DNA of 61,329 nt from Eledone cirrhosa (lineage: Eukaryota), in the NCBI GenBank assembly GCA_964016885.1, contig CAXHJY010001558.1:1-61329 (forward strand), in the 5' to 3' direction. Of the stretch, positions 32,943 through 39,415 are shown piece by piece. The notes below the pieces were generated by a model. The model ran no database searches. It saw only the letters and a program-made list of their open reading frames with translations, and had not been told where the DNA came from. How positions within the stretch are numbered: the stretch's first letter is position 1; each line of letters begins with the position of its first letter. The position numbers were made by a program, and so were the translations under genes.

Positions 32943-33218
32943 GGCTAATTGACCACTCCCCAAAGAAAAAACACCCTGTGCCATGAAGTGGTCCTATGTA
33001 TCTAAATACACCCCCCCCCAATCCACCACCCCTCACTTACCACTACCTAAATGTATAAATACCAGAACTTAATATGACACCCAGCTTCCTGAAGATTTCA
33101 TCTGAATGAAACAGTACTAGTCCTGTAGAAGCTCCTTCTATAAAATAAAAAAAATTTACTCTGCCATGTATTGAGTACCTTACTTACTGTGGTTATCCCC
33201 GACTCAACCCGGGACCTA
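32943..33218 (+). mobile_element. PLE family 1 terminal repeat, most complete copy
   Basis: (TA)n, TATAAAT (33054-33060), HHR, AATAAA, bulged hairpin, (TA)n. Confidence 0.8.
33083..33133 (+). ncRNA. Type I hammerhead ribozyme, intact core
   Basis: AGCTTC-CTGAAGA-T TTC ATCT GAA T-GAAA-CAG TACTAGTC CTG-TA-GAAGCT; predicted cleavage 3' of A33127. Confidence 0.85.
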
Positions 33219-33672
33219 CGTATATATATATATATATATATATATTATAAAGAAAACGAAAAGACTTAGTTTATTTCGTGTTACAAATGTTTCGCCGTCA
33301 TGTAGCTCGAGTCATGGTCCTTGTATGGATCTGGCTGATTCTACTTCTGCGGGTTCTTTCAGACACGGGTGTTACGTCCGGAGCAAATTTTATCACTCTA
33401 CTCTGATGAATATCAAGTGCTAATTTTGGCATACTCCCTATGGAAGCACCATAGCTACCACTTACACACACACACATACATATATATACATATATACATA
33501 TATATATATATATATATATATATATATATATATATTAGAAAGTGAGGTTTTTTTTACAAAATGAAAAATAACCGAGGTGTCCTACACGAGAGAAAGTATA
33601 AAGAAAAAAAGATGAAATCGAAAATGCAACTGGAGTCTTTTTTTTTTTTAAATATATATATTTATTTGGTTC

Positions 33673-33708
33673 CTTTACCGGTTTCGCAGTTCTTCTGCTT
33701 TTCAAAAG
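33673..33708 (-). ncRNA. Hammerhead ribozyme candidate with U3-A8 core variant
   Basis: CTT-TTGAAAA-GCAG AAGAA CTGC-GAAA-CCGG-TA-AAG, inside an inverted repeat (33598-33638 / 33743-33783) with (TA)n flanks. Confidence 0.55.
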
Positions 33709-35010
33709 TAGAGTTGAGATGGAGGGTCTGTGGTTTTTCTCAAGGCTCAAGTTGCATTTTCGATTTCATCTTTTTTTCTTTATATATATATATATATATA
33801 TATATATATATACATATACATATATTTGTATATATATATATATATATATACATATATATTTGTATATATATATATATATATATATATATATATATATATA
33901 TATATATATATATACCGATCAAAAGCAAACTCGGTGTTAGTGTTTATGTCATATATCTTAGAAATTCGATCAAATAAGTATTGAGGGTGATGAAAGAGAA
34001 GAAAAAAATCCTCCAAAATTGCGTTGCTCCATCATGGCTGCACTCCATTGACCGAAACTAATAAAAGTACACGAGAATACAACAAAATAGACCTGTTAGA
34101 AATAAAAAAAAGTCTGCTTTGGTGAATGGGCTAGGGAGGTGGAGGTGGTGTTGAGTGGTGGGAGATGAAAGCAATAAAGCGAGGCGGAGAGGTGGGGGTA
34201 AGAAAACGAAGAGAAGATGAATATGTTTGAAGCCTTTGTGTTCTTCATGTCTAACAGACGTTATCAGTCAGATTTATATCTTCACCTTTGTATGTTATAT
34301 ATGTATTGAATATACAGGATGTTTTTAGTTAAAGCAATGTTCAGAAAACACCGTTATCTTTCCAGACGAGATAAAATTAGAGAAATAATCACGAAAACTA
34401 CCTCTCTCTCTATATAAAATTCTTTGTCTCTCTCTCTTTCTCTGTCTTTTCCATTCCCAAACGTCACGACCAAATCAAATAAAATTTTACAAGGCATTTA
34501 CACGGTATTAGACCCGGGGACTGTCAACATATAATTTTGATTTTGATTTCGATTAAAACAATATAACACTTTATCTAAAATATTCTACTATAGACAATTA
34601 TAATTAAACAGATATTTTATAACACGACGACGTCACATTTTGTGCGTTCGTTACCTACGTTACGCCTTAGTAAGTTACATACACACACGTCTTCACATAA
34701 ATATTTAATCAGATACACAGAGAATTACACACGATTCGGACGCTGTTTTACACACACACACACACCCACACACCCACACACACACATACACACACACACA
34801 CACACTTATATACAATTATCTATATCTACATATAATATAACATTGAAACTTTTGAGAAACGTGGAGCTGCTTACTTCTATGCAATGACACATTTTACAGT
34901 CAGGCGGAAGATGAACCATCTCCTAGAGGTCATTTAACTTGGAGGCAATCATCAAGGAGAAAATGCATTTGACAGTCAGTTTTAGATATATGTCATACCT
35001 TGATATTGTG

Positions 35011-35578
35011 TAGGGTTTCCCAACCTGGGACTTATCACTCACCAGTGGACGATTTCAACTGTTGGGTGAGCGAGGAGCAACTGAACAGAAAATGGTGGGG
35101 AGTGGGATTGGAAATTTTGGTGAACAATATAGGGTTTTGTGTATTAAGAAGGTATTTTAACATATGCTACCCGGAAAAAAATATTCAATGGAGATATGCA
35201 AAGAACCTATATATACCAAATTTTTTTAAAGGGAGGGGAAAGTCGATTAAATCGACCCCAGTACATTACTGGTACTTTATTTTATCGACCCCCGTAAGGA
35301 TGAAAGGCAAAATTTACCTTGGCAGGATTTGAACTCAGAACATAAAAGGCCATAACTCTATGCTGCAAAGCATGGTGTCTGGCGCTCTACCGATTCTGCC
35401 AATCCACCTGGAAGCTAAATGGGAATAACAAACCCTAACCCTAACCAGTCACAAACTTTTTACCAAATATTTTTTATATGCTTTTGAATATTTACTATAC
35501 AGGTCAGGTGGGCGGTGGAAAATATTTTCCATTCCATGTGAAAGTGGGCGATGAAACAAAAAACGTTGGGAAGCCCTG
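35011..35578. mobile_element. Probable hAT MITE interrupted by SINE S1 (35230-35408, minus)
   Basis: Ends TAGGGTTTCCCAAC / GTTGGGAAGCCCTG; no clear target-site duplication (TSD). Confidence 0.5.
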
Positions 35579-35954
35579 CTGTAGATTAAGAACCCCTGCT
35601 GTAGACTAAGGGCTCTGGCATAAGTGTCCCTTAGTGAATTAGGCTATTAATGCATTTAATCTTGTTTATTGATAAATTTAGATATATTTACGTTTAGGTT
35701 TAGGCAATTGAAGGTCAGTTTTATATAAGTTATTGGAGCAAAAAAACGCGGAGCATAAAAATTCTTTAAAACCGTTTCATGCAATGTAGGTCAGAAATGT
35801 TATCATTAAATTGGAAAAACCTCTGTTTTGAGGAAGGCATTTGGTTCTAATTAACCCCCCCCCCCCCCCCCCCACCACACACTTCACTTTCTGGGATTCA
35901 TTTCTAATTATTTTCGTATGTTTAAACAAACAATAATAGATGTATATCTGAATG

Positions 35955-36832: not shown

Positions 36833-37657
36833 TAAATATATATATCTACATGTATATGTATATCTATATATATATGTATGTGTGTGTGTGTGTGTGTGTG
36901 TATGTGTGTGTGTGTGTGTGTGTACATATATCTACATGTATATGTATGTATGTGTATATGTATGTGTGTGTGTGTGTGTACATATATCTACATGTATATG
37001 TATGTATGTGTATATGTATGTGTGTGTATATGTATGTATGTGTATATGTATGTGTGTGTATATGTATGTATGTGTATATGTATGTGTGTGTATATGTATG
37101 TGTGTGTATATGTATGTATGTGTATATGTATGTATGTGTATATGTATGTGTGTGTATATGTATGTGTGTGTATATGTATGTATGTGTATATGTATGTGTG
37201 TGTATATGTATGTATGTGTATATGTATGTGTGTGTGTGTGTGTGTGAGTGTATAATGGGTAAAAATCGAAAACTATTCTATTTTGATTATCAGATCCGAA
37301 TATTTTGATATTGTAAATGTCACCAGGAATTAATGACCCCTCGATTACAAATGAGGTCCATTGTACCAATCAACTTAATGTCAAATTAGAGCTCGGCTAT
37401 TGTTATTACATCCGGTAGTAGTAGGTGGGGGTGGGGTGATTGTGGAATTAGGGCATTGACACACGTATATGATTGATTGGTTGTTGTGTGAAGCGGTCTC
37501 TCTACGGTCAGTTAAAAGCCGAGGTAGGTTGGTGTTAGGATTATCAAAACGCACCTTAAAACGTTTGAAGTTTTTGACATTATATTGTAAACGGTTTTGA
37601 AAATTTTAAATACACAAAAGATCAGTGAATAACAATATATATATATATATATATATA

Positions 37658-37972
37658 TAGCTTGATATAAGCTGCCTCTACGCATGTTAGCTTGACATAA
37701 GCTGCCTCAACGCATGTTAGCTTGATATAAGCTGCCCCAATGTATGTTAGCTTGATATAAGCTGCCTCAACGCATGTTAGCTTGATATAAGCTGCCCCAA
37801 TGTATGTTAGCTTGATATAAGCTGCCTCAACGCATGTTAGCTTGATATAAGCTGCCCCAATGTATGTTAGCTTGATATAAGCTGCCTCAACGCATGTTAG
37901 CTTGATATAAGCTGCCCCAATGTATGTTAGCTTGATATAAGCTGCCTCAACGCATGTTAGCTCGATATAGCT
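37658..37972. repeat. 30-bp minisatellite x~10 with 60-bp dimer periodicity
   Basis: TAGCTTGATATAAGCTGCC followed alternately by TCAACGCATGT or CCAATGTATGT. Confidence 0.95.
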
Positions 37973-38390
37973 TCATATATTTCACCACAGCATTACTATC
38001 TCAAAGTCTAGTATGTTCATCATAATCAAACAAAAGCAATCAGAAGTTACATTACATTTCTGACTGCTATAATTGTTTGTGCTGTATACATAAACTTATT
38101 CATCTGACTAAAACAATGAGACTGTGGAGTGAAAAATAAATACGATTGCAGTTAAAATAACACTATGACATTTCAATAGTTTATGTCGAAGCGTTTCCTA
38201 GACAACGACTCTCTTATCATGCCAGACAGAAAATTGTTTTACAGTTTACTCAACAGGACTTGTAATTATATAAATAGTTACGTAAAGATTATCAAAATAA
38301 ATACTACATATCGACTAATACTACACATCGACTAAACTCCACGATTTTACTAATCATTTCATTTTCTCCTAAAATATCTACAAAACAAAC

Positions 38391-38588
38391 CTTAGCCTTC
38401 CTCCAAAACAACATAAGAAAGACAATCTTTGATTCCAGACAATTCTAAAGGTGTTTGTTTTGTACAATAAACGTTACCATTCATATCAAGAGCAAACTTT
38501 GAATTCCCATCATCCACCATTTTGTGTGTAATATTTATAAAGTTGGTTTGACTGACTAGTAAAAGGCAGTGATGCATTGTGGGTAGTG
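38391..38588 (-). CDS. Possible host-gene exon (198 bp), product unknown
   Basis: Branch-point-like CTCTAAT, acceptor TTTCAG and donor-like AG|GTTTGT. One frame is open for 64 codons (LPTMHH...KFALDMNGNVYCTKQ...VLEEG) and ends in TAA; sequence is non-repetitive. Confidence 0.35.
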
Positions 38589-39360
38589 CTGAAACATTAG
38601 AGGTAAACTACTTGAACATCAGTTTGTTGGAAGAATGGCAACATACCATATTTATAAATAGTGCAGAAAAAAATGTGAAATAGATTTAAAATAGACGGTT
38701 AACCGGTTCGAAAACAAACCTAACCGTAACTCTAAAATAACAGCCGAGCAATAGCAACATGCCTTATGTTAGCTTGGTTTGTGTTGCTGTGGTTCCGCCA
38801 TTGCCGTCACCACCACCACCACCACCACCACCACTCTGTAGAGGTGTGTTACTCCCTCACCGCCTCCACCACCACCACCACTCTGTAGAGGTGTGTTACT
38901 CCCTCACCGTCTCCACTACCACCACCACCACCACCACCACCACCACCACTATGTAGAGGTGTAAAGCTGCCGTTCCTTCACTATATTTCGGTCAGCAACC
39001 TCTCACTATGTCGGGCTACATGCTGTCTCAATGCCCAAAACATGTACTGATGCTATAGACAGATGTTATTACAAAACAAAGTGAACACGGAAAGCATAAC
39101 TCGACTATTGACACAAATATAACTTTAGAAGAATATATTGTACGTAGAAGCAAATACTAATTAGATAAGACTCATTTAGTGCATACACACACACACACAC
39201 ACACACACACACACACACACACACATATATATATATATATATATATATATATATATATATGTGTGTGTGTGTGTGTGTGTGTGTGTGTGTGTGTGTGTGT
39301 GTGTGTGTGTGTGTGTGTGTGTGTGTGTGTGTGTGTGTGTGTGTGTGTGTGTGTGTGCAC

Positions 39361-39415
39361 AGAGATTCCTGATGATTTCTAATGAATGAAACAGTTCTAG
39401 TCCTGTAGAATCTCT
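39361..39415 (+). ncRNA. Type I hammerhead ribozyme, intact core (family 1)
   Basis: AGAGATTC-CTGATGA-T TTC TAAT GAA T-GAAA-CAG TTCTAGTC CTG-TA-GAATCTCT; 8-bp stem I; predicted cleavage 3' of A39407. Confidence 0.88.

What the first reader, a model, noticed from the sequence alone, without database searches (positions are those of the whole stretch)
33083..39415. Family 1 hammerhead: covariation visible within the window
Two intact copies differ in stem I but both pair perfectly (AGCTTC/GAAGCT at 33083; AGAGATTC/GAATCTCT at 39361). Loop II varies (ATCT, TAAT, TCCC, CTCC, CTTC in five loci) while TTC/GAA pairing is kept, and N7 varies A/T. Stem III is a 16-nt near-palindrome ACAGTWCTAGTMCTGT. 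The 32943-33218 copy has TATAAAT about 25 nt upstream and AATAAA downstream, like a self-contained terminal repeat. This suggests structure was maintained in several active source subfamilies.
Basis: seen in the sequence. Interest (0 to 1): 0.75.

Follow-up and report, generated by a model that had tools for sequence, protein, structure and literature searches.

The report
Penelope ribozyme copied uncut from cap
These motifs are copies of the self-cutting RNA fold carried by a known kind of animal jumping gene, present over 26,000 times in this genome, and the ends of the copies suggest the element's message likely starts on the ribozyme's first base and is usually copied back into DNA uncut.

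Summary
The motifs are real. They are type I hammerheads in the terminal repeat of a Hydra-clade Penelope-like retrotransposon: 26,475 exact core matches genome-wide, and in 10 of 20 fetched loci the repeat lies 1.3-3.2 kb behind the end of an RT-endonuclease ORF with Hydra motifs. The U·U at the base of stem II is a published Hydra trait. The covariation claim is thin: one compensatory pair separates the two copies. Stem II is invariant, the '8-bp' stem includes two non-parental bases, and copy-private changes are random.

New here: 39 of 87 tail-anchored copies end at or just inside the first base of stem I, 29-30 nt behind a TATA box, against 5 near the cleavage site. In three subfamilies an extra G, absent from the parent, often precedes that base, as when reverse transcriptase copies an mRNA cap. 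The templates were therefore likely capped and uncut. Cleavage and expression are untested; no RNA run was listed. Earlier scan notes on other DNA of this genome already report the Hydra clade, two-armed insertions and tail hairpins; none shown mentioned the cap signature.

The parts
32943..33220 (+). 5'-truncated 3' end (pLTR plus tail) of a Hydra-clade Penelope-like element, subfamily B (ATCT loop), inserted in (TA)n
   Evidence: 87-96% identical to pLTRs of loci L121-L140; ORF upstream in 10 of 20 of them; (TA)n on both sides
33054..33061 (+). TATA box, 29 nt before the first base of stem I (inferred promoter)
   Evidence: Spacing 29 in 34 and 30 in 18 of 64 long copies
33083..33133 (+). 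Type I hammerhead: 6-bp stem I, U·U plus 3-bp stem II, near-palindromic stem III, GUA triplet; A33083 is the inferred transcription start
   Evidence: Sequence; folding; 5'-end map
33158..33176 (+). Bulged hairpin just behind the short end site (candidate RT-start signal; lead from earlier scan notes)
   Evidence: Read by eye; present in subfamilies A and B; not tested further
33198..33213 (+). 4-bp hairpin with an AC-rich loop just before the tail end; its outer pair is C-G in B and U-A in A
   Evidence: Read; folded
39362..39429 (+). Mini-copy of subfamily A (TAAT loop): extra G at 39362, stem I from 39363, ends at the short site about 22 nt after the cleavage site, no tail
   Evidence: parent has C at that place; the same junction type is common genome-wide
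3680..3820 (-). Tail-bearing arm of a head-to-head pair (TCCC loop)
3824..3875 (+). Short arm of the same pair, with a core change (CTGGTGA)
16196..16287 (.). Damaged head-to-head pair (CTTC loop)
16609..16735 (-). Solo tail-bearing copy truncated inside the core (CTCC loop)
44201..44228 (-). Fragment (3' half of stem III to the short end site) in (TA)n

Best explanation
These are hammerhead-type motifs in the terminal repeat of a Hydra-clade Penelope-like retrotransposon, whose mRNA likely starts at the first base of stem I, 29-30 bases behind a TATA box. The element's enzyme likely cuts (TA)n DNA and starts reverse transcription from both DNA ends at two internal sites, about 20 and about 90 nt behind the ribozyme's cleavage site. 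When the 5' copy of the repeat is used, copying runs through the uncut ribozyme to the cap, often adds a G, and leaves promoterless mini-copies of about 65 and 135 nt, mostly head to head. Long copies would need read-through into a second repeat. The ribozyme is predicted to be weak as a monomer and to cut mainly as a dimer; cutting would remove a capped 45-nt leader, and cut RNA is rarely copied from its new 5' end. Shown: anatomy, parent ORF, end positions, extra G. Inferred: promoter, cap, two-ended priming, dimer cleavage.
For: Parent: L131 reads ORF end, pLTR with tail, intact 710-aa ORF, 1.6-kb UTR, pLTR. 10 of 20 loci (L131 included) have the ORF end 1.3-3.2 kb upstream on the same strand at 81-100% identity. 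Subfamily A links to a sister ORF end at about 70% identity in one insertion (L032/L033). Motifs RWR, DKT, YRDD, CxCx5C, YIG, CxxC and CxH match the Hydra description. 1426 homologues at E<=1e-20; some carry PF01541 and many PF26215. 5' ends: 39 of 87 at -10..0 from C3, 5 at +34..+42 (cleavage at +39); 38 of 56 partner arms at -10..0 and none at +34..+42. Genome-wide, 2,047 matches with a non-parental base just before stem I (10 of 100 listed were parent-extended) against 90 for a filtered cleavage-site pattern. Extra G, hand counts: 52 of 60 informative junctions in A; 25 G against 3 A in 100 listed (TA)n-abutting copies; 19 of 35 in C, where fold-back would give T (4). In 20 of 56 pairs the short arm reaches further 5' than the tail arm. 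Double hammerhead -25.8 against -19.6 kcal/mol for two monomers. An extra G marks capped full-length L1 insertions (PMC11702581). Uncut RNA is the main in vitro template of an Anolis PLE (PMC11167929).
Against: No RNA or cleavage data. In A and B the base after the 3' arm is C, so a 1-nt fold-back also gives G; only C separates the two, and there G is 54%. One search excluded C by design. In one search, 51 of 100 have no extra base and 21 have the parental C, so starts may vary. Patterns 69 and 75 have different filters and are not an exact comparison. One reference used held only 7 nt upstream, which can sharpen the wall for C-type copies. An AG at the start of stem I in A and B could be a splice acceptor. 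The lowest-energy folds bury the core GAA, so activity may be very low. No tree against Hydra references; local Pfam gave no relevant hit.
Confidence: 0.72

Rival explanations
1. Same element, but the 5' wall and extra G come from cDNA fold-back on stem I or from joining at the near-palindromic 5' arm, not from a capped start.
For: Snap-back is documented for R2 (PMC11371274). AGCT overlap junctions are common in B. 17 of 100 rows were templated by the partner arm or fold-back.
Against: Solo copies stop at the same place. B junctions mostly show a single G after T or A, not the GG of a longer fold-back. C shows G where fold-back predicts T. Both arms carry their own G in GAATCTC-N-GAGATTC junctions. 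The wall matches TATA spacing in three subfamilies.
Confidence: 0.12
2. The 5' wall is a splice junction or spliced-leader site at the start of stem I, as the Penelope intron ends at helix I in D. virilis.
For: PMC4209133. A and B have CAG after a T-rich or C-rich run at that place.
Against: Copies keep the AG itself and no shared upstream exon appears in the 100 junctions listed in each. C has no AG at its wall.
Confidence: 0.05
3. The ribozyme cuts efficiently in vivo and the cut RNA is the translated or circularised form, while only the uncut fraction is copied. This changes the ribozyme's role, not the template.
For: Core and stems are conserved between subfamilies. Self-cleavage in 5' UTRs can drive cap-independent translation (abstract of PMC13725137). 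The ORF start lies 140 nt behind the cleavage site.
Against: Weak predicted monomer fold (probability 0.001 and 0.03). Low in vitro activity of metazoan PLE hammerheads.
Confidence: 0.25
4. A self-contained non-coding ribozyme element (retrozyme or SINE) with its own TATA and poly(A) signals.
For: Most copies are short and non-coding; the 32943 copy holds a TATA box.
Against: Coding parent found. No tandem array covers the motif in the 150 of 163 repeat rows shown. Mini-copies lack the promoter. No poly(A) ends seen.
Confidence: 0.04

Closest known systems
Hydra clade of C-terminal EN+ Penelope-like elements (Craig et al. 2021, PMC8557442; passages, section 11, supplement parts 1-2 of 59 read)
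   Same: DKT, CxCX5C, CxxC and CxH motifs, (TA)n targets, hammerhead in the repeat. File S2 lists many Hydra hammerheads with T before and after stem II and ACAG..CTGT stem III. Inverted 5'-truncated copy and one-sided tail.
   Different: RWR instead of RWK; unit about 4 kb with a microsatellite-filled UTR; 16-nt near-palindromic stem III; tail about 70 nt. The listed Hydra-1_Obim hammerhead has a different sequence. No start site or cap signature seen in the parts read.
Minimal PLE hammerheads (Cervera and de la Pena 2014, PMC4209133; parts 1-2 of 4 read)
   Same: pLTR location, predicted dimer, many solo and opposite-strand copies, families with covariation.
   Different: No G10.1-C11.1 pair, short stem II, a real 4-bp stem III.
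Poseidon_Ac of Anolis (Frangieh et al. 2024, PMC11167929; parts 1-2 of 4 read)
   Same: Two internal RT starts defining the tail, AT-rich target, uncut RNA as template.
   Different: There the ORF begins inside the ribozyme and the evidence is mainly in vitro. Here the ribozyme lies in the 5' UTR and the evidence is genomic.
Penelope of Drosophila virilis (Schostak et al. 2008, PMC2377424; passages read)
   Same: Promoter in the pLTR, tandem and inverted copies.
   Different: Internal TATA-less promoter and an intron before the ribozyme, against an inferred external TATA promoter here.

Membership tests
Type I hammerhead ribozyme | CUGANGA / GAAA / UH core with three stems, open at stem I | tested here: met
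   both copies
Type I hammerhead ribozyme | Self-cleavage 3' of H17 | not testable with these tools
   No assay; few copies start at the site
Canonical hammerhead (Rfam models; usual G10.1-C11.1) | Paired 10.1-11.1 and a match to curated models | tested here: not met
   U·U at that place; no Rfam hit at gathering score or hammerhead hit to E 10. U·U is common in Hydra hammerheads
Penelope-like elements (EN+) | pLTR flanking one ORF with RT and C-terminal GIY-YIG-type endonuclease | tested here: met
   the related endonuclease piece from L031 scored 0.97 to a GIY-YIG cluster; local Pfam silent
Penelope-like elements (EN+) | Tandem and inverted insertions with a one-sided tail | tested here: met
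   56 of 86 tail copies have an inverted partner ending 11-28 nt after the cleavage site; L131 is a partial tandem
Hydra clade | DKT, CxCX5C linker, CxxC and CxH around E and N | tested here: met
Hydra clade | N-terminal RWK motif | tested here: inconclusive
   RWR at residue 38, a conservative change
Hydra clade | Insertion into (TA)n | tested here: met
Hydra clade | Placement in the RT tree | not tested
   Reference proteins were not available as session sequences
Non-LTR retrozymes | Tandem non-coding units, each with a hammerhead | tested here: not met
   Coding parent; no such array in the rows shown or in the loci read

The most novel reading that the evidence does not exclude
In Hydra-clade Penelope-like elements the hammerhead is the first 51 bases of a TATA-driven capped mRNA. 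The telomerase-related RT copies uncut RNA through the cap from both ends of a DNA break, so the genome holds thousands of natural start-site tags. The ribozyme then acts as a dimer-triggered decapping switch that sorts the RNA between a template fate (uncut) and another fate (cut), and not as the step that makes the template.
Probability: 0.4. Interest if true: 0.68.

Novelty: new member of a known kind. Interest (0 to 1): 0.45.

Why it matters
The role of hammerheads in Penelope-like elements is described as unclear (PMC8557442), and one proposal is that they cut out the template (PMC4209133). The insertion ends here point the other way in a living lineage: copies trace back to capped, uncut RNA. 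This gives an exact predicted start, two RT start sites and an intact natural ORF, which makes the question testable. The ribozyme itself is an ordinary member of a described clade.

Tried and rejected
1. Link to the ORF at L012/L031: rejected as a one-off chimera; 0 of 29 other copies of that ORF end carry this pLTR, and the 832-aa family has another ribozyme.
2. Neptune clade, my first guess from recall: replaced by Hydra.
3. Rfam: no hit. Local Pfam: no relevant hit. PDB sequences: none.
4. Monomer folding is no better than shuffles (z -1.3 to +0.4).
5. The L022 search gave non-independent copies; 29 of 30 share one downstream flank.
6. Sequencing runs: no RNA holder listed; read laying not used.
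7. Lunse et al. 2017 was not held; seen only as cited in passages of PMC6765202.
8. No formal covariation statistic was run, because related copies inflate it.
9. Searches for a published TATA or cap description: searches gave 0 papers; searches listed none on this point by title or abstract start. Subscription papers and Repbase are not covered.
10. Rows dropped: L167 (unanchored), L247 and L258 (duplicates), L149 (spurious partner).
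Full report
Observation. Both motifs are present as written and are not chance: 4 core matches in the window against 0.32 expected, and 26,475 exact matches of a 27-place pattern in the 3.0-Gb genome, 0 for the reversed control. The window holds eight copies or fragments at six places; only 33083 and 39361 are intact. Rfam does not detect them.

What it belongs to. A first link to an ORF at L031 was a one-off chimera (0 of 29 other copies). Anchoring on sequence upstream of the repeat (280 matches; 20 regions fetched, two of them overlapping) found the parent. 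In 10 of 20 loci, L131 included, the end of one ORF lies 1.3-3.2 kb upstream on the same strand at 81-100% identity. L131 is a partial tandem with an intact 710-aa ORF starting 140 nt behind the cleavage site. It has RWR, DKT, YRDD, CxCx5C, YIG, CxxC and CxH, which match the Hydra clade description (PMC8557442 section 11). Subfamily A, the 39361 type, links to a sister ORF end at about 70% identity in one two-armed insertion. File S2 of that paper shows that T on both sides of stem II is common in Hydra hammerheads, so the U·U here is not new. I did not build a tree. The repeat landscape recalls an octopod; that is recall, not a test.

Covariation. A and B differ at 7 of 51 positions: 3 in loop II, N7, 1 in loop III, and both sides of one stem I pair. 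Subfamily C has GGCTTTC with GAAGCC, a second double change if one U is bulged. Among 65 A and 51 B copies from loci not chosen by ribozyme sequence, private changes were random: 22 in 31 constrained against 6 in 14 free columns (p 0.31), and 15 against 7 (p 1.0). Shared variants lay in loops, apart from two columns affected by truncation. Sister families in the genome keep the same frame with other stems. Selection on source elements is therefore likely, but the window shows one event. The 8-bp stem at 39361 includes two bases that the parent lacks.

Ends of the copies. I mapped the first 90 listed matches (one skipped, already held) of 15,058 for a tail anchor and dropped 3. Of 87, 39 end at -10..0 from C3, 1 at -26..-11, 15 further upstream, 15 at +1..+33, 5 at +34..+42 and 12 beyond. 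56 have an inverted partner that ends 11-28 nt after the cleavage site, without tail; 38 of these also begin at -10..0. In 20 of 56 the partner reaches more than 4 nt further 5' than the tail arm, which a fold-back of one cDNA cannot give. The first base of stem I lies 29 nt (34 of 64 long copies) or 30 nt (18 of 64) behind TATA; by eye 30 in C.

The extra G. Counts are by hand from the rows listed. Subfamily A (100 of 2,047; C excluded by the pattern): 10 parent-extended, 17 templated, 13 ambiguous, and 52 G among the 60 left. Copies abutting (TA)n (100 of 118): T 51 (flank), G 25, C 21 (parent), A 3. Subfamily C (100 of 1,081): 34 parent-extended, 22 templated, 9 ambiguous; of 35 left G 19, A 9, T 4, C 3 (p 2e-4 against 0.25); fold-back predicts T there. 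In B, informative junctions mostly show one G after T or A (not counted exactly). An extra G at full-length L1 junctions is ascribed to the cap (PMC11702581, passage). A filtered pattern for starts at the cleavage site gave 90 matches, some of them internal deletions; its filter drops some real cases.

Mechanism. Inferred: Pol II starts at the first base of stem I; the protein cuts (TA)n and primes at two internal sites from both DNA ends; copying runs through the uncut ribozyme to the cap. This agrees with in vitro results for an Anolis element (PMC11167929) and differs from the TATA-less internal promoter of D. virilis Penelope (PMC2377424). The exact monomer hammerhead fold has probability 0.001 and 0.03. 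The double hammerhead is more stable than two monomers (-25.8 against -19.6, and -20.6 against -11.2 kcal/mol) but less than a misfolded dimer (-30.0, -21.2). Cleavage would remove a capped 45-nt leader; whether that leads to decay or to cap-independent translation (abstract of PMC13725137) is open.

Prior work and verdict. PLE hammerheads, their covariation, opposite-strand pairs and Hydra elements are published. The preprint 10.64898/2026.07.22.740005 (part 1 of 5 read) concerns retrozymes; its supplements are closed. Earlier scan notes on other DNA of this genome reached the Hydra and two-arm readings and add tail hairpins; I saw the first hairpin by eye at 33158-33176. A word search for the capped, uncut template found no note, and paper searches found no description, within a library that lacks most subscription journals. 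Verdict: new member of a known kind, with a useful and testable clue to the template.

Noticed in passing
L061-L080 (for example L066:2784-5279): A very young coding family with Hydra-type motifs: 38 of 150 listed hits have an 832-aa open frame (hand count). Its repeat holds a hammerhead-like motif with a CCGAAGA core and an unpaired base of stem II.
   Followed up: partly
L031:1585-4500: One-off chimera: the ORF of another family joined to this family's repeat about 170 nt into the 3' UTR.
   Followed up: yes
L261-L290: A subfamily C repeat with a GUU triplet carried as a passenger inside another repeat; 29 of 30 loci share the downstream flank.
   Followed up: partly
L171-L200: At least two further low-copy hammerhead families with the same U·U frame but other stems (ACCGAG/CTCGGT stem I; CAC/GTG stem II).
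   Followed up: partly
window 33097-33110: The UUC of stem II can pair with the core GAA instead, giving an inactive fold in the lowest-energy structures.
   Followed up: partly
window 28438-28462 (-): Another CTGATGA..CCGAAAC hammerhead-like core of a different family; a similar one lies next to the match in L027.
   Followed up: no
window 47947 (-) and 16394 (+): Weak hammerhead-like descriptor matches; the first has a CCGATGA core and a palindromic stem III.
   Followed up: no
window 32805-32860: AT-rich, nearly perfect hairpin of about 25 bp just upstream of the insertion; only sub-threshold miRNA matches.
   Followed up: no
window 3793-3866: The two arms of one pair share a stem I change but differ by an A-to-G in the core; later mutation or RNA editing are both possible.
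   Followed up: no
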